Assembly: GCA_016748015.1 (NCBI GenBank)
Contig: JAAOMT010000133.1
Location: 18,150-24,570 of the forward strand
Length of the DNA: 6,421 bases
Reading direction: 5' to 3'
Source: Geosiphon pyriformis uo1
Lineage: Eukaryota; Fungi; Glomeromycota
How positions within the stretch are numbered: position 1 is the first letter of the stretch; the number at the start of each line of letters is the position of its first letter. The notes beneath the pieces are model-generated. The model was given only the letters and a program-made list of their open reading frames with translations, was not told the DNA's origin and ran no database searches. The position numbers and the translations under genes were made by a program. Shown piece after piece: positions 1-6,421 of this stretch.

Positions 1-354
1 AATTCTTTTCCTTTCTCTTTAATTAATTGATCATTGAATTCAATAGTGGCTGCAGTTACTTGTTCTATCCAATAACTTAAAGCTTGGTTTAATAATGGAA
101 ATTTAACGCTTTTGTGTCGAATAGATCTTTCTGAGATTTCATCAATTTCAATATTCAACCACTTTGCATGCTCTTTGATTATCTTGAAGACAGTTGGACG
201 AGAAATATGAAGTTCTGGATATTTATGATTAAAGTAAGCTACAATATCATCATGTTTCGTGCCATAGTGATTTTTGGAATATTGACAAATTTCTTTATGA
301 AGAGCATCATTGACTGTTGCTCGTTTTTGTTTTTTGAATAAAGGTTCCCGACAT
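1..354 (-). pseudogene. pogo/Tigger-family transposase N-terminus (two CENP-B-type HTH domains); start codon out of frame by 1 nt; truncated by the window edge
   Basis: A stop-free minus frame from 428 to 3 reads ...EPLFKKQKRATVNDALHKEICQYSKNHYGTKHDDIVAYFNHKYPELHISRPTVFKIIKEHAKWLNIEIDEISERSIRHKSVKFPLLNQALSYWIEQVTAATIEFNDQLIKEKGKE. This fits an ABP1/CENP-B N-terminal HTH (KEIC...I.RxTV.KI) followed by HTH_Tnp_Tc5 (KFPLL..AL..W......I...LIKEK). The ATG at 354-352, in context ATCAAAATGTCG, joins this frame (MSEPLFKKQKR) if one G of the GGG run at 349-347 is removed. Not in the ORF track. Confidence 0.85.
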
Positions 355-580
355 TTTGATAATTTAGCAAGTCTGTTAGAAAATGTGCTTATAATGATAA
401 TATTAGATTTGGTTTTAGCAAGCCTGAATTAGAATACAAAAAGGGCTAAATGGCTGTATGTGAAAACAGATAAGATCAAAAAGAGTAAGTCCAATGTAAA
501 TCGATTTAAAAGAAAGTTAGGATGAAATCAATTCAATACGTTCTTCCCAATTACCAATTAACATCTAATACATGATATTT

Positions 581-755
581 GTTCTTATATGAAGGTAAAT
601 TTCGAATAAATATTTGATAAAATTATGTTCTTGTTCCTTTATAGATTGTTCTTATATAAAGGGAAAATTGTTAATTAATCAATTGGTTCTATAAAAAAAT
701 GTTCTTTGTAAGAGGTTGTTCTTTTATCGAGGGTTCTTTTATAGAGGTCTCAGTG
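581..755 (-). repeat. Terminal/subterminal repeat region of the pogo-like element with five 15-bp direct repeats
   Basis: Plus-strand copies: GTTCTTATATGAAGG (581-595), GTTCTTATATAAAGG (648-662), GTTCTTTGTAAGAGG (701-715), GTTCTTTTATCGAGG (718-732), GTTCTTTTATAGAGG (733-747). Partial copies at 633-644 and 686-693. The partner TIR lies outside the window. Confidence 0.85.
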
Positions 756-1586
756 TACTATGTTTTTTTGTTAAAAACGTAATTTTTAAATATTAACATA
801 ATTTTTTAAGCTTAAAATATTAATTTTTTAATTATTAAAGCTTAATTAATGTTTTTTATTCTATAATTAATATTATTATTAATTTAGATATTATTGATTA
901 AAAAAGAATTAACTTATTATGTTCAGATATTATAAATAATAACATAAATATTTTATTCTTAAATTATATTATTTATAAAGCTTTTTTTTATAAAATATAT
1001 AAATATATACGTTTTTTATATTAATTTTTTGTTTTATTAATTATTTTAGTGTTTAATATGTATTTATAAAATAATTTATTTAATTTATTTCAATATAAAA
1101 TAGATTTTCAAATATTAATTGCAACAAAAAAAAATGCTTTTTTAATTAAAATTATTTAATATTTAATATTTATTAATTACAACAAAATTAAATATACTTT
1201 TGTTTACATAATATTATTAATATATTTAAAAAACACTTACATATTTTATTTTTTTTAAATATTATTATTTAATGAAGTTATAAGCTTTTTATAATCATTT
1301 TTAAAGCATTTTTTTAATATTCAAAATAGTTTTTTCTTAAAATTTTTATTATTTTAATTAGAATTATAAGCTTTTTGTTTATTAATAGTTATATAACAAT
1401 ATTATTAAATATTAAAATTTTTAAAAAAAATATTGTGCCTAAATTTATTTACAAAAAATTTTATAATTAATTAATAAATATAGTTCAATCATTATTTATT
1501 ACAATATAATTATAAAAAAGTCTAAAATAAGAAAAATATATATATTTTTTATATGTAACTAATTACTTGAGTTGATTAAAATAATA

Positions 1587-2125
1587 TTACAAATTAATAT
1601 TACAAAAAACACAATTATTATTAGAAAATTTAAAAAGAATTAAAGACAAAAAATTTATAAAACCAAAATTAATTAAAACACTACAAAAAAACCTAAAATT
1701 ATAAATTTTTAAATTAAAGCTACATAATAGCAAACTGCTAATTATATTAATAATTAATCTATTTACAAATATTAAATTATTAAATTTGTAGAATTTTCTT
1801 AAACTAGTATTAAAAAACCAAATATCTAATTTATAGTAAATTGTAATATTATATACAAATTTAACAATATTAATAATTACTTTTAATTTATCAGAAAAAA
1901 TATTAAAAGCTTTCATAAATTATTTTTTAAGATAAAGTTTTTAATAATAGCTATATATAAATAGTTATTAGATTTTATCTTATATAATATTTAAATAACT
2001 GTAAAATTTACAATTAAAAATAATATACTAAACCAAAATAACACTAGTGATAATAATTTTTTTAACAACAATATTTAATTTACATAAAAACATATAATCA
2101 AAATTTTTTAATAAACTATAATATA
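1587..2125 (-). pseudogene. Hypermutated C-terminal part of a non-LTR retrotransposon (LINE) ORF2, including a decayed C-terminal Zn-finger
   Basis: The minus strand at ~2123-2082 reads YYSLLKNFDYMFLC, which transition reversal turns into xCGLLEDSDHxFxC, the tail of the CX2CX7HX3C finger. At ~1960-1905 it reads LYIAIIKNFIL/K*FMKAF (LYTAxAKGFVLKxW pattern). The track ORF 1916-1587 (IVKFVYNI...IW...LRKFYK.NNLI...FGF) follows and ends at a stop. The match is to recalled fungal LINE ORF2 C-termini. The upstream boundary is approximate. Confidence 0.65.
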
Positions 2126-2251
2126 AAAATTATACAAAAAACTTCTTTTTCTTATATATCCTAATAAACATCAAGAGTCTTATTTTGTTAGTAAAAATTT
2201 TTTAGTTCTTATATTATTCAGTTTGATATCTTTAAATTTTTTCTGCTTAAT

Positions 2252-4043
2252 TATAAAACTATTACTAAACTTAATATTGCTATTATAAAAAAGTTTGTTA
2301 AAAGCTTTAGAGTTTATATTATTAACAAAAATGTTGTTTCTAAAAAAAAAGATGCTTTGGAAAATAATATTGCTGATAAAAAAGTTTTTACTAAAAAAAT
2401 GATCAAAAATTCTTGGAATTCTAAAAATAATAATACTAAATCTAATAGTATTAACATAAAAAGAGAGTTTTTAGTAAAAAAAACCAGTGTAAATTATGAT
2501 AAAAGACTTGTTTTAGACAGAAAAAAATTAAATTAGATACCAAAAGGTGACCAAACAAGCTTTAAACACTTTTTTAAGAAAAATTAATTTCTTAAGTAAT
2601 AATAAGAATAATGTTTTCTTGAATACTTCTTTAAGTTTTCTTCTGCTACTAAAAAAATCTGGTTAATATATTTGTTAAAAAGTTTTTTGCTTTGGATATT
2701 GGCTTAAATAAAATTGTTAAGAAGTTATTATATATAAAACTTATAATAATTAGAAAAATATTTACAAAAGTTAATGGTTTTAAGAAAGTATTTATTTTCT
2801 TAAAATTTGTTAGTATTATTAGAATTACATTAACTTTTGAATTTAACATAGCACAAACAATAGATTTGGTTAAGACTAGAAATATTTTAGTAAATACCAA
2901 TCTTAAAAAATTTGCAATATGTTTAAATTAGGCTGTAGTTGTTAAAAAAATTTTTATAAAAACTTCCGTAAAAATTGTATATACTGTGCTTTTCAGATTT
3001 AAGATTATTGTATTAATCAAAATACAACCAATAGGACTGTAACAAAAAGCTATTATCAAATTTGAGTAATCTAATTATATTAATTTGACTATAGTAGAAT
3101 AGTTTGTTTTAATTAAGAAAGATACTACAAAGATTGTTAAGATTAATATAAATAAAAAAACAGAAAACACAAGAAACTATAATAGAACACTGCTTTTCAT
3201 ATTGCTAATAGATATACATACTTACAATATATAAGATTTTATTAAATTTATAAACAAAAAACATGTATTATTAACTAATATTCAGTTATATATACCAGAA
3301 CTAAATATATTGTAATGTGTTTTAACTCTAAATATTTATTAAATACTGTTATAAAAACCATGCCAGTATTTAAAAATACTAATTTTTATTGGTTTTATTT
3401 AAATTTAGCCAAGTTTGTCAAGTATAAAAACTTAAGTTATATATTATTAAGTTGTATTATTAATAAAAAGATTTTTTCTAATAGCTTATCTTATAAAATG
3501 TTTTCTAAAGCAGATAAAAGTAAATTGGTCATTATTTATATTAAGTAATTAATTTTTGTAGTTCATTCAGTTTTTTTTAGTATTTTTTGAATAAAACTTA
3601 TTGATAGGTCTTTATTTTTTTTTCTTTTTATGCAAATAGTTTTTTAAGTTTTGGCTTTTCTTTGAAAATAAAGTTTTTTTTATTAATATTGAGGAAATAA
3701 ATAATAAATTTACCACTCTTAAACACAGTTTTACTAGTTTTAAAAAGTAAGTTAACAAGCTGGCTAAGATATTAGATGTATTTAGACTAATAATTTTTTA
3801 GTTTAATTCTGAATATTAGCTATTAGTAATTTTTTTATTACAAAATTAAAAGAGAGATACAATAATAAGTAAAAATTTAGGCACAGTTACTAATAGTAAA
3901 ATTATTGTAAAAACGGAGTTTTTAAACCAGTCAATTGTTTTAAGATTGAAAAAAATATAAAAAATTTGTTAATTAAGGTTATGAGTCTGTTGATCAAGAT
4001 AAACAATAAAAATTTAGGTTTGAACACATTTTTTTAACAATAA
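2252..4043 (+). pseudogene. LINE ORF1 (gag-like nucleic-acid-binding protein: RRM-like regions, CCHC zinc knuckle, C-terminal coiled-coil-like segment), heavily mutated
   Basis: There is a stop-free run of 94 codons at 2252-2533. The frame of track ORF 2692-2931 continues past its stop as *AVVVKKIFIKTSVKIVYTVLFRFKIIVLIKIQPIGL*QKAIIKFE, which is RNP-like (ancestral ...FG.IVSIKMQ.IGLWQKA.IEF). Bases 3414-3455 read F-VK-Y-KNLS-Y-ILLS-C, i.e. CX2CX4HX4C spacing with TGT>TAT and CAT>TAT (first Cys>Phe needs a transversion). The frame ends ...VMSLLIKINN...Q* at 4043. Several frameshifts are present. Confidence 0.75.
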
Positions 4044-5053
4044 CAAATCTGGTTTAAAAAATTGCTATGTACAATATTTAAAGTATTAATGTTCTTATTA
4101 AGCAAAATAATATTGTTTGTTAGTATATTAATTTAAATAACATAGTTTCTATTATTATAAACACAAAATTAAGATCTAATATTAAGTTATAGATTATAAA
4201 TAAGTTTGATAAAGTCTAAATTTTTATATTTGGTTTAGATATAAATTTTTTTGGTATTAATGTAACCATTATTATAAACAGTTTTCTGGTTCAGTATATT
4301 TTAAAAATAGAAAAATTTCAAATCAATTGATTTTAATATGTCTTTTATTTAAAAGCAAGTATTTGGTTATGATTTTAGGACTATATACTGGTGTTTTATT
4401 TGTGTTTAAATTTAAACAGACTTTAAAAATCAATGTTTTTATTGCTAAGATAATTAATATTAGTTTATTTGTGGTTTTGAGCAGAAATTTTAATGAAAAT
4501 AGATTTAAAAAAAATGTTAACTTTAAGTTTTATATAAGTTTGGCCTTGATTAATTTTTTTAATAGATATTTTTTAACCAAAATTTTTACTTAAAGCAATT
4601 TAAGAAAGATAAAAAAATTATTGATTATATTTTTTAGATGAAAATTTGGTGTCTACTGTCATAAGTCATAATATTAGAGTAGTATTTAATTTTTTCAATA
4701 TTAATTACAAAATTGTAATAATTTTAGTTAATTTAAAGATTTTCTGGATGTTTGTTTGAATAATATTCATAAACAAGCTAATAAAAATCAATGAAAGTTT
4801 AAAATTAAAGAGGTGAATAATACCAAGTAAATACAATTTAAAGAATATTTTTTTATTAAGTTCTTAATAATAATAAATAAGTTTTTAAATACAAAAGTTT
4901 TTGGTAATATAAGAGATATTGAAAAAGATAATAGTAAGAACAGTTAATAAAATATTTTTTAAACATTTGCTTAATATGTTTAATTATACAAAAAATAAGC
5001 AGTCTTTAAAGTTTTTTAAATTAGAATTACTAATGGCCAAAATTATTAAAAAG
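4040..5053 (+). pseudogene. LINE ORF2 N-terminus: apurinic-like endonuclease (APE/EEP) domain plus linker, heavily mutated
   Basis: The APE motifs occur in canonical order: KIAMYNI*S (TCNVRG-like; 4058-4084), IINTKL (ETK; 4154-4171), ILGLY (track ORF 4327), VVLSRNFNE (LGGDFNE; 4471-4497), T* (TW; 4588-4593), IDYIF intact (4620-4634), FNINY (FDTDH; 4694-4708). The linker ends ...KFFKLELLMAKIIKK at 5053. Confidence 0.88.
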
Positions 5054-5054
5054 A

Positions 5055-5098
5055 CAAGTCTAAATAATATAAGAGGATATAAAAATTATTAAATATTT
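5055..5098 (+). repeat. Left TIR of the Tc1-like element (may extend inward to ~5125)
   Basis: caagtctaaataatataagaggatataaaaattattaaatattt aligns to the reverse complement of 6348-6390 (taaattcagac-atacaaaaagatataaaaaatattaaacactt): 31 of 43 identical, 11 transitions, 1 transversion, one 1-nt gap. Confidence 0.72.
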
Positions 5099-5230
5099 AA
5101 TATAATATATAAAAAAAACTATATATTATAATACTATTATTAATTTAAGCCATAATTTTTTTTATAATTATTTATAATTATAATTTACAAATTAATATAA
5201 ATTATATCTTTATAAAACACAACAGCAGAT

Positions 5231-5246
5231 TATATATATATATATA
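5231..5246. repeat. (TA)8 microsatellite ending in a TATAAAA box, ~40 nt upstream of the Tc1 transposase ATG
   Basis: tatatatatatatata at 5231-5246 is seen directly. A promoter role is unproven. Confidence 0.6.
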
Positions 5247-5288
5247 AAATATCAAATATTTTTATTATAAAAAAATTTATCACATTAA

Positions 5289-6278
5289 ATGTCTTTTAGA
5301 AAAAAACTTTTTAAATACCAAAAAAAAAGGATTATTTTAGCAAAAAAAATAGAACATTTAAACAGTAAAAATTTTATGACTATTAAATATTCATGTTTTT
5401 TTGTAATATATATATAAAGTTATATAAGCTAATAAATATATATGTAAACAACTTAAATATTCAATAATAGAGAGCAAAAAACCCACTATTAAATTCTTTT
5501 TTAAATACAATTGAATTTTATTAAAAATATCAACAAATTTATTTTTATATAAACTATTTGAAATAGATTAGCTTAAGAAGAATTTTACTTGTATATTCTT
5601 TATTTTATGTTATTAATTTCTAAATCAAATAAAAAAAAACATTTACAATAGACTTATATTTATAAAAATTGAACAGTAAAAAATTTTAAACAATTTGTTT
5701 AATCAAATAAATCTATATATACACAATTTAAAACTATAAAATTTAAACATTTATGGTATAAACTTTTTAAGGAGTTCTATAAAGATTGTATTACAGCCAC
5801 AGTTAGAAAAAATTTTGATCACATATTTAAAGATGTTTTTTATGAATTGGTTTGAATTCTTTAGTTCTTTTGGTTAGTTATATTATTAAAGTTATATACC
5901 ACAAAATTTTAGCTAATTATGCAATTTCTATAGTAAAACTTTATGCAAAAAAAACTAAAAAAAAGTTTTTTTTTAGGAAAACAATACACTAATCTATATA
6001 TTAAAAGTTGTGTATTTTTTTTTATCTCTTTAAATGTTGAATTATTTTTTTGGCCAGCACAAAGTTCTGATATTACTCTAATAAAAAATTTTTCATTATA
6101 TATTGAAGTTAAAATTTGTTTACATAATTTATTACCTCTAAAATATTGTACAATTAAAACAGTAAGTTAAGAAAAAATAAGATGCAATATTTATAAATTA
6201 CTATTGTAATTTGATCAAGTCTATGCCATGTTAATTTCAAGCTATTTTTAAAGCAAATAAAATTAAATAAAATATTAA
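5289..6278 (+). pseudogene. Tc1-family DD34E transposase relic (N-terminal HTHs plus DDE_3-type catalytic domain)
   Basis: ATG at 5289 (MSFRKKLFKYQKKRII, like M..RKELSEY.RG.II). Then KKHLQ*TYIYKN*T (KRL.WA..H.NWT), V*SNKS = VWSDES (D at 5706-5708), F*ENNTLIY = FQEDNAPIH (D at 5980-5982), WPAQSSDITLIKN = WPAQSPD..PIEN (E at 6084-6086), LIKSMPC* = LI.SMPRR, and terminal KY* at 6270-6278. The D-to-E distance is 104 nt, which is D34E after restoring a 1-nt deletion. Confidence 0.9.
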
Positions 6279-6347
6279 TATGTATTTTAATATAATAATA
6301 AAAAATTAACAATTTATAAGTTAGGTCTTTTATATAACATATTATAA

Positions 6348-6390
6348 AAGTGTTTAATATTTTTTATATCTTTTTGTATGTCTGAATTTA
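6348..6390 (-). repeat. Right TIR of the Tc1-like element (may extend inward to ~6320)
   Basis: Inverted counterpart of 5055-5098, as aligned in the left TIR entry. Confidence 0.72.
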
Positions 6391-6391
6391 A

Positions 6392-6421
6392 GTTAATAAG
6401 TGGTCAATTTTAAATAATAAA
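6392..6421 (+). pseudogene. Probable resumption of LINE ORF2 after the Tc1 insertion
   Basis: Reads VNKWSILNNK, resembling the V.KWSTLD segment that I recall following LELLVAKIVK in this LINE family. Only 10 codons are visible. Confidence 0.5.

What the first reader, a model, noticed from the sequence alone, without database searches (positions are those of the whole stretch)
781..1560. Unusual mutational context: GpC (especially AGCT) survives, and CpA is not specifically depleted
A hand count over 781-1560 gives about 37 C and 33 G (~9% GC). GpC occurs 9 times against ~1.6 expected, five of them in AAGCTT. CpG and CpC occur once each, GpG not at all, and more than half of the surviving Cs are in CpA. 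Motif reversions elsewhere show that TpC and CpC contexts were hit (GAT>AAT, GAA>AAA, TGG>TAA, CCT>TCT). This fits neither Neurospora CpA>TpA RIP nor plain mCpG decay. Inference: a broad-context methyltransferase or deaminase that disfavours a 5' G. Avoidance of 5'-G is known for APOBEC1/APOBEC3-type deaminases, but no enzyme can be identified from this window.
Basis: partly seen in the sequence, partly recalled or inferred. Interest (0 to 1): 0.75.

Follow-up and report, generated by a model that had tools for sequence, protein, structure and literature searches.

The report
Context-biased cytosine erosion of fungal transposons
Dead jumping genes in a fungus that is likely Geosiphon or a close relative have lost an inferred two-thirds of their cytosines to C-to-T change on both strands, fastest at CG and at cytosines flanked by T or C, which accounts for most of the surviving GC pairs and likely records steady methylation-driven decay rather than the classical RIP defence of moulds.

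Summary
The counts are right: 9 GpC against 1.6 expected, five in AAGCTT. The interpretation needs correcting. Most of 758-6421 is decayed LINE DNA, and every named relative is from Geosiphon pyriformis (Glomeromycotina). Against ancestors inferred from paralogs, about 65% of informative C/G sites have mutated, equally on both strands. CpG is hottest whatever its 5' base. Other cytosines mutate 10-20 times above background, about twice as fast after T or C as after A or G, and faster with a pyrimidine at +2. CpA is not preferred. So 5' purines protect, with G about tied with A, and GpC is enriched because both its cytosines are cool. This spectrum reproduces the LINE region's composition; G-only, Neurospora-like and flat-plus-CpG models do not. 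Mutations are not strand-coordinated, which argues against APOBEC editing or burst RIP. Best reading: steady deamination under CpG plus DIM-2-like non-CpG methylation (enzyme and repeat-specificity untested). The local AAGCTT cluster stays unexplained (scan-adjusted p about 0.05). Not found in print for Glomeromycotina. This scan noted similar erosion, with CpT spared, in two other early-diverging fungal genomes.

The parts
1..757 (-). 5' part of a pogo/Tc5-type DNA transposon (HTH gene about 3-350, frameshifted near 350; putative terminal repeat ending at a TA near 757-759). Lightly eroded, 29% GC; likely a younger insertion.
   Evidence: 5 of 5 hits are G. pyriformis proteins, up to 85% identity; PF03221 on P0001; 5 of 5 residues derived in the window copy are C>T/G>A changes; an X2 contig matches 626-757 and then leaves. 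The terminal-repeat label is recalled, not tested.
758..1586 (.). Most deeply eroded DNA (9-9.5% GC), holding the finding; lies 3' of the minus-strand LINE stop. Ancestor unknown (3' UTR or an older element).
   Evidence: None of the 30 best tblastn rows shown for the LINE proteins fell here; no long paralog at 80% or more in X1.
808..1373 (.). Five AAGCTT survivors (808, 838, 978, 1282, 1368); residual not explained by the fitted spectrum
   Evidence: RRRYYY centres: GC 5 of 11 here, 3 of 103 in 1561-6421. Flanks share only chance purine/pyrimidine pattern, 13-24 of 40. 0 of 120 simulations give 5 AAGCTT under any of five models.
1587..2201 (-). C-terminal end of the long ORF of an eroded non-LTR retrotransposon (LINE) copy
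   Evidence: tblastn E down to 4e-8 to C-termini of G. pyriformis LINE proteins; profile alignment 74 bits, 2180-1725
2255..5077 (+). 5' 930 codons of a second LINE copy (ORF1-like region plus likely AP endonuclease), with many stops and frameshifts, truncated before the RT; 18% GC against an inferred ~50% ancestor
   Evidence: 931 columns, 1460 bits; 23 of 23 hits G. pyriformis; family members carry PF03372, PF00078, PF00075; ancestor GC
5078..5400 (.). Second deeply eroded unassigned stretch (10.5% GC)
   Evidence: GC at RY steps 3 vs 1.1 expected, p 0.07
5401..6421 (.). Another multicopy repeat, eroded the same way (16.7% GC, no CpG); family not identified
   Evidence: Summed contig depth 4,900-15,000 against ~60 for the window's own contigs; 27 of the 32 listed rows here are T>C/A>G in paralogs; CpG 0 in 4501-6421

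Best explanation
The window is a stack of dead transposons, mostly LINE copies, whose cytosines have turned to T on both strands, fastest at CpG and next at cytosines with a pyrimidine at -1 and +2, likely because CpG methylation plus a weaker, sequence-biased non-CpG methylation (DIM-2-like) is followed by steady deamination in double-stranded DNA. Shown: element identity, C>T direction, strand symmetry, context ranking (CpG >> TpC > CpC > ApC about equal to GpC; no CpA preference; +2 T/C about 1.5-2 times +2 A/G) and staged erosion (pogo light, paralog gene models 9-27%, window LINE 65%). Shown by simulation: GpC is enriched because it is the one dinucleotide with a 5'-purine cytosine on both strands. 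Inferred: that 5mC is the intermediate, that a DIM-2-type enzyme sets the non-CpG bias, that the process targets repeats, and that the host is Geosiphon pyriformis or a close relative.
For: Window vs inferred ancestor, mutated: TpC 114/144, CpC 73/95, ApC 50/95, GpC 70/132; by 3' base CA 29/46, CC 58/95, CT 32/56, CG 8/8. Strands 170/261 vs 264/410; +2 purine 146/261 vs +2 pyrimidine 134/199, p 0.016. EM on 119 paralog rows: CpG 0.52-0.59 for all four 5' bases; non-CpG by 5' base A .106, C .158, G .101, T .192; by +2 A .102, C .158, G .115, T .195; T>C background .0096; a flat null simulation returns flat aggregates. D>N and E>K exceed A>V and A>T in 12 of 12 subfamilies. Hold-out of 173 of 327 domains from 96 of 111 new proteins: D>N .233, E>K .231, A>V .123, A>T .131. 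Paralog-fitted rates predict the window LINE: GpC 1.71-1.75 (obs 1.50), ApC 1.10-1.14 (1.12), TpC .70-.77 (.74), CpG .11-.13 (.08), CNG 1.40-1.42 (1.50). Strand split across 119 copies is binomial (chi2 123, df 118); neighbouring events share a strand no more than permuted (.534 vs .529). DNA-level paralog differences are 845 transitions to 170 transversions. AMF are reported to carry DNMT1, DNMT5, DIM-2 and RID (PMC8298701, passage). Phycomyces TEs are methylated at CG and CHH but not CHG (PMC11258239, passage), which fits the CNG survival here.
Against: No methylome and no methyltransferase gene of this organism could be examined. No unique or host DNA was compared, so repeat-targeting is untested. 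Known DIM-2 outputs differ: over 98% CpA in Z. tritici (PMC8016269), CpT preference in Neurospora (PMC13297926), and no C>T excess in methylated H3K9me3 domains of vegetative Neurospora lines (10.1101/2022.03.13.484164). The paralog-fitted model over-predicts CpA survival (1.14-1.16 vs 0.98) and TGCA share (0.23-0.25 vs 0.06) in the window LINE and cannot yield 9 GpC or 5 AAGCTT in 780 nt (0 of 120). Single trinucleotide rates drift by about 30% even under the null, so only aggregates are reliable. Majority-rule tests of the +2 effect held in only 5-6 of 8 subfamilies. Ancestors come from proteins: stops are censored, gene models favour milder copies, and 102 of 808 window columns did not fit a C>T-only path and were dropped.
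Confidence: 0.55

Rival explanations
1. Only CpG is methylated. The non-CpG layer is unrepaired spontaneous deamination or guanine damage (pyrimidine-run cytosines, purine-run guanines), either genome-wide or in poorly repaired heterochromatin. It would be a mutation bias, not a defence.
For: Steady, strand-neutral, unclustered accumulation fits equally well. AMF genomes are AT-rich (27.7% and 27.3% GC for G. margarita and R. clarus, PMC12543289 supplement file 1). AMF TE methylation in the passages read is reported as CG (PMC8647823). TCT is the most mutable trinucleotide in vegetative Neurospora.
Against: Non-CpG C>T runs 10-20 times T>C and only 2.5-5 times below CpG, a narrow gap if these cytosines were unmethylated (inference from recalled 5mC/C contrasts). 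CNG sparing matches a CG+CHH methylome.
Confidence: 0.25
2. A weak, many-round RIP variant (RID- or DIM-2-dependent, homology-triggered, premeiotic) with a new target preference; many small rounds average out the strand bias.
For: Near-exclusive C>T/G>A in repeats, down to 9% GC. RID is said to be present in AMF (PMC8298701; another review lists RID for Ascomycota only). Slight patchiness along copies (1.015 vs 0.961 +/- 0.029).
Against: No CpA preference. No strand bias per copy even in lightly hit copies; copy loads unimodal at 9-27%. More than 900 related gene models persist.
Confidence: 0.12
3. An APOBEC/AID- or DddA-like deaminase preferring TC/CC and avoiding GC edits the elements.
For: The 5' ranking T > C > A >= G resembles such enzymes (recalled); G is lowest in 4 of 5 hold-out flank classes.
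Against: No plus-strand G>A excess as cDNA editing predicts (65% vs 64%). No strand-coordinated clusters. CpG is hottest even after G (GCG .52). No enzyme was seen.
Confidence: 0.05
4. UV photoproducts at dipyrimidines drive the bias (Geosiphon lives at the soil surface; recalled).
For: 5' pyrimidine preference; modest excess of double GG>AA changes (G>N/K 99 observed in the hold-out, about 68 expected by my arithmetic).
Against: Cytosines with no neighbouring pyrimidine are heavily hit (RCA 12 of 23 in the window; ACG and GCG as hot as TCG).
Confidence: 0.03

Closest known systems
Dim2-dependent mitotic C>T mutation of TEs in Zymoseptoria tritici (PMC8016269; passages)
   Same: Steady C>T accumulation in methylated repeats, RIP-like outcome without bursts
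   Different: There over 98% of changes are at CpA and CpG is spared; here CpG is hottest, CpA is not preferred, and -1/+2 pyrimidines set the bias
Canonical RIP of Neurospora crassa and other Pezizomycotina (PMC12543289; passages, section 9)
   Same: C>T/G>A saturation of repeats, leaving AT-rich relics
   Different: CpA preference absent; no per-copy strand bias; host lies outside the four ascomycete classes where that survey found strong signatures
TpCpG hypermutation of Pucciniomycotina TEs (PMC3318451; passages)
   Same: CpG-centred TE hypermutation with a role for the 5' base
   Different: Here CpG rates ignore the 5' base (.52-.59) and the 5' effect acts on non-CpG cytosines
CG plus CHH (not CHG) TE methylation in Phycomyces blakesleeanus, which has DNMT1 and DIM2 (PMC11258239; passages)
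   Same: The methylation pattern that would leave this footprint, including CNG sparing
   Different: A methylome, not a mutation spectrum; here +2 A is as cool as +2 G, so the bias is C-H-Y rather than simply CHH
Plain 5mCpG decay as expected for AMF TEs (mCG in Rhizophagus irregularis, PMC8647823; passages)
   Same: Accounts for the CpG layer
   Different: Does not account for non-CpG C>T at 10-20 times background

Membership tests
Canonical (Neurospora-type) RIP | C>T/G>A transitions on both strands of repeats | tested here: met
Canonical (Neurospora-type) RIP | CpA preference | tested here: not met
   CA 29/46, CC 58/95, CT 32/56; Neurospora-like simulation gives CpA OR 0.24 vs 0.98 observed
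Canonical (Neurospora-type) RIP | Burst-like, strand-biased rounds (feature recalled) | tested here: not met
   Binomial strand split in 119 copies; no same-strand neighbours
Canonical (Neurospora-type) RIP | Homology-triggered, premeiotic, RID-dependent | not testable with these tools
   No genome, no cross, no way to query for RID
Canonical (Neurospora-type) RIP | Restricted to duplicated DNA | not testable with these tools
   The window holds no unique DNA; non-LINE segments of the gene models were too few
Plain 5mCpG decay | CpG hottest, independent of 5' base | tested here: met
Plain 5mCpG decay | Non-CpG cytosines near background | tested here: not met
   .10-.19 vs .0096 T>C; even flat elevated non-CpG plus CpG gives GpC OR 0.97 vs 1.50
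Z. tritici Dim2 mitotic mutator | Near-exclusive CpA target | tested here: not met
   against PMC8016269
DIM-2-type non-CpG methylation with deamination | All-context C>T in TEs, steady and strand-neutral | tested here: met
DIM-2-type non-CpG methylation with deamination | DIM-2 gene present and non-CpG 5mC on these repeats | not testable with these tools
   Only a literature statement for AMF in general (PMC8298701)
Pucciniomycotina TpCpG hypermutation | TCG well above VCG | tested here: not met
   ACG .59, CCG .54, GCG .52, TCG .55
APOBEC/AID-type editing | 5' pyrimidine preference | tested here: met
APOBEC/AID-type editing | Strand-coordinated clusters or plus-strand G>A in retroelements (recalled) | tested here: not met
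Non-LTR retrotransposon (LINE with APE, RT, RNase H) | Endonuclease, RT and RNase H domains in one long ORF | tested here: met
   In family members: PF03372, PF00078, PF00075. The window copy itself gave no such Pfam hit and is assigned by alignment

The most novel reading that the evidence does not exclude
Geosiphon, an early-branching glomeromycotinan, runs a repeat-directed hypermutation defence with a signature not found described (CpG plus Y-C-H-Y, CpA-indifferent, purine-flanked cytosines spared), written by a DIM-2/RID-family enzyme with its own flanking preference. CpA-centred RIP screens would misread it, and short motifs such as AAGCTT may be actively shielded in the oldest DNA.
Probability: 0.35. 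Interest if true: 0.75.

Novelty: new variant of a known kind. Interest (0 to 1): 0.5.

Why it matters
RIP signatures are reported absent from Gigaspora and Mucoromycotina (PMC8647823), and a 1,239-genome survey concludes that RIP-like defences share a CpA preference and occur in few clades (PMC12543289). An all-context erosion that can take a ~50% GC element to 18% or less in a glomeromycotinan widens that picture. It gives a precise prediction (-1 and +2 pyrimidine bias, CNG sparing) for a methylome or for a DIM-2 assay, whose flanking preference is stated to be unknown (PMC11315935). It may help explain the low GC of mycorrhizal fungal genomes. It also warns that many 'hypothetical proteins' of G. 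pyriformis are eroded LINE copies: 960 library proteins match at E <= 1e-10, and all whose names were seen are from this species.

Tried and rejected
No whole genome is held, so genome-wide counts were impossible. Pfam on six frames of the window found no transposon domain, only one below-cutoff match. The metagenome scan for the LINE found no locus. No RNA holder was listed; this is no evidence on expression. Laying X1 on 781-1560 gave no long paralog and no listed variants. One search listed only 40 of 1,029 variant rows; their contexts (1 of 35 transitions at GpC, itself a CpG) are biased because neighbours are read from the mutated copy, so they were not used as evidence. An ancestral tandem or internal repeat behind the five AAGCTT was not supported by purine/pyrimidine-coded comparison. 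A 16-trinucleotide model and an interaction model kept drifting at third codon positions, so single-trinucleotide rates such as ACT vs ACC are not reported as findings. One directional-ancestor tabulation gave inflated rates and was replaced by majority rule. A test on non-LINE families failed for lack of data. The profile search of the representatives failed on size; a single-protein search replaced it. Rejected models for the LINE region: G-only protection, Neurospora-like CpA, flat plus CpG. Literature searches found no report of this for Geosiphon or Glomeromycotina. The Geosiphon genome paper, Venice 2020 and Bewick 2019 were not read (seen only as citations). Supplement files 13-19 of PMC12543289 and all bioRxiv supplements were not searched and could bear on the novelty claim.

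Full report
Observation. In 781-1560 there are 37 C and 33 G, 9 GpC against 1.6 expected, five in AAGCTT, one CpG, one CpC, no GpG, and 20 of 37 C in CpA. No base shuffle of 100,000 reaches 9 GpC. Over 758-6421 the strand-symmetric odds ratios are GpC 1.91, ApC 1.10, CpC 1.08, TpC 0.71, CpG 0.11, CpA 1.01 and CpT 1.14. The flank 1-757 shows GpC 1.03 and TpC 1.22. GpC exceeds expectation in 7 of 7 tiles, but 781-1560 is the extreme. Contigs of run X1 match 713-2293, 2475-4102 and other pieces without a difference, so the DNA is not an assembly artefact, although X1 may be the source sample.

What the DNA is. Bases 1-757 are the 5' part of a pogo/Tc5 transposon; 5 of 5 protein hits are Geosiphon pyriformis. 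A frame at 2653-3243, read with X at stops, found 23 proteins, all G. pyriformis. A profile search found 477 at E <= 1e-10, and the 120 listed are all G. pyriformis. An exhaustive search found 960 at E <= 1e-10; 10 of 10 new ones looked up are G. pyriformis. Family members carry endonuclease, RT and RNase H domains, so this is a LINE. A frameshift-aware alignment places 931 columns on 2255-5077 (+, 1460 bits) and a C-terminal piece on 2180-1725 (-, 74 bits). The stretch 758-1586, which holds the finding, has no detected protein or long DNA paralog. 5401-6421 is another multicopy repeat. The host is inferred to be G. pyriformis or a close relative.

Direction and amount. Paralogous contigs differ from the window by 845 transitions and 170 transversions. 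Ancestral residues were inferred from the 15, 27 or 37 closest paralog rows, with the same result each time. With 27 rows, 808 columns were usable and 102 that did not fit a C>T-only path were dropped. At informative sites 170 of 261 plus-strand and 264 of 410 minus-strand cytosines have mutated. Paralog gene models have lost 9-27% (median 16%). The pogo copy carries 5 derived residues in 115 columns, all C>T/G>A. Erosion is therefore staged, likely by age.

Context in the window. By 5' base: TpC 114/144, CpC 73/95, ApC 50/95, GpC 70/132. By 3' base: CA 29/46, CC 58/95, CT 32/56, CG 8/8. With CpG excluded: GCY 41/85, ACY 25/51 (p 1.0), CCY 37/44, TCY 58/83; RCY vs YCY p 1.5e-5. A pyrimidine at +2 raises the rate (134/199 vs 146/261, p 0.016).

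Context in paralogs. 134 proteins gave 159 rows, 138 entered the tree, and 119 rows in 12 subfamilies were analysed. D>N and E>K (TpC) exceed A>V and A>T (GpC) in 12 of 12 subfamilies. A codon-level EM gives CpG 0.52-0.59 for all 5' bases. Non-CpG aggregates are A .106, C .158, G .101, T .192 at -1; A .101, C .183, T .144 at +1; and A .102, C .158, G .115, T .195 at +2, against T>C .0096. A flat null with rate heterogeneity returns .107-.112 at -1 and .101-.119 at +2, but single trinucleotides drift by about 30%, so only aggregates are trusted; per-subfamily values share one prior. Majority-rule checks with K/E/Q upstream give TC .206, CC .154, GC .143, AC .139; AC exceeds GC in only 4 of 10 subfamilies; the +2 effect holds in 5-6 of 8. 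A hold-out of 173 of 327 domains from 96 of 111 new proteins repeats the ranking. G is below A in 5 of 5 flank classes there, but V>I is inflated (reverse I>V .13). G is thus the coolest or joint-coolest 5' base at about half the rate of T; the main axis is purine versus pyrimidine.

Does this explain the GpC excess? Ancestor samples (GC about 0.50, all odds ratios near 1) were evolved to the window LINE's 18.4% GC. The paralog-fitted rates give GpC 1.71-1.75, ApC 1.10-1.14, TpC .70-.77, CpG .11-.13 and CNG 1.40-1.42, against observed 1.50, 1.12.74.08 and 1.50. G-only protection gives 3.14 and .68; Neurospora-like rates give CpA .24 and CpG 1.72; flat plus CpG gives GpC .97. The fit over-predicts CpA survival and TGCA, probably because stops are censored in proteins; a simple 5'-purine model matches CpA and CpT better. 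At purine-pyrimidine steps outside 781-1560, G and C survive independently (OR 1.10, p 0.31). So GpC is enriched because both of its cytosines have a 5' purine.

The residual. At 9% GC the fitted models give about 3.3 GpC per 780 nt and never 9 (0 of 120); no model gives 5 AAGCTT. Locally OR 5.2, p 0.0014, scan-adjusted about 0.05. RRRYYY centres are GC in 5 of 11 here and 3 of 103 elsewhere. The five sites are not copies of a longer repeat. In the LINE paralogs GCTT is not especially cool. Chance after selection of the tile, an ancestor unlike the LINE, or shielding of the motif all remain open.

Mode of action. Across 119 copies the split between plus- and minus-strand events is binomial (chi2 123, df 118, p 0.36). 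Neighbouring events share a strand at .534 against .529 permuted (56 of 200 permutations reach it). Patchiness is slight (1.015 vs .961 +/- .029). This argues against cDNA editing, kataegis-like deaminase action and single-burst RIP (expectations recalled), and for steady independent hits in double-stranded DNA. UV alone fails because RCA (12 of 23) and RCG are heavily hit.

Mechanism. Most likely two layers of 5mC, CpG and weaker sequence-biased non-CpG, with deamination (0.55). AMF are stated to have DNMT1, DNMT5, DIM-2 and RID (PMC8298701, passage), although another review lists RID for Ascomycota only (PMC13297926, passages). Phycomyces TEs carry CG and CHH but not CHG methylation (PMC11258239, passages). 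DIM-2's flanking preference is stated to be open (PMC11315935, passages). Against this, Dim2 in Z. tritici mutates CpA almost exclusively (PMC8016269, passages), and vegetative Neurospora shows no C>T excess in methylated domains (10.1101/2022.03.13.484164, passages). The main rival is a general, unrepaired mutation bias on top of CpG methylation (0.25), which this window cannot exclude. Neither enzyme nor methylation was observed.

Novelty. RIP signatures are reported undetected in Gigaspora and Mucoromycotina (PMC8647823, passages). A 1,239-genome survey finds strong signatures in four ascomycete classes, with CpA preference (PMC12543289, passages and section 9); Geosiphon does not occur in the supplement files searched, and files 13-19 were not searched. 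The TpCpG pattern of Pucciniomycotina differs (PMC3318451, passages). Passages of PMC12344493, PMC13207899, PMC7862722 and 10.64898/2026.01.14.699541 added nothing decisive. Ten searches found no such report for Geosiphon; its genome paper was not available to read. Standard RIP indices are borderline (TpA/ApT 1.12; (CpA+TpG)/(ApC+GpT) 0.91; thresholds recalled). This scan's notes describe similar erosion with CpT spared in two other early-diverging fungal genomes (unchecked), so the phenomenon may be widespread with lineage-specific contexts.

Verdict. This is a new variant of a known kind: a well-supported mutation signature with an untested enzyme. Interest 0.5.

Noticed in passing
P0006-P0250 (G. 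pyriformis gene models): Hundreds of annotated 'hypothetical proteins' are eroded LINE copies spliced around stops (960 library hits at E <= 1e-10); some are fused to host-like domains (TPR, WD40, Ras, spermine synthase, lipase).
   Followed up: partly
window 1587-5077: Two LINE pieces lie head to head: a minus-strand C-terminal piece and a plus-strand 5' piece, about 1,000 profile columns apart in the element. Nested insertion or inversion with deletion; not resolved.
   Followed up: no
window 759/769 joined to 5402 (table 5c): Other contigs of X1 (depth about 500) join the DNA just past the pogo end to 5402, hinting that 760-5401 may interrupt an older repeat, or that the pogo also sits in the 5401+ family.
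   Followed up: no
window 5401-6421: High-copy repeat of unknown family, with a 50-codon open stretch at 5703-5855 and many paralogs retaining C/G.
   Followed up: no
window 758-6421: C-N-G and G-N-C are enriched among surviving cytosines (1.48 and 1.40), as expected if purines at +2 and -2 protect.
   Followed up: yes
LINE family: The inferred ancestral LINE ORF is about 50% GC with no CpG avoidance, far above the 29% GC of the pogo flank; the third-position part of this estimate depends on the fitted prior.
   Followed up: partly
window 344-358: The pogo gene has a local indel near its start relative to paralogs (table 4), so it is also a dead copy.
   Followed up: no
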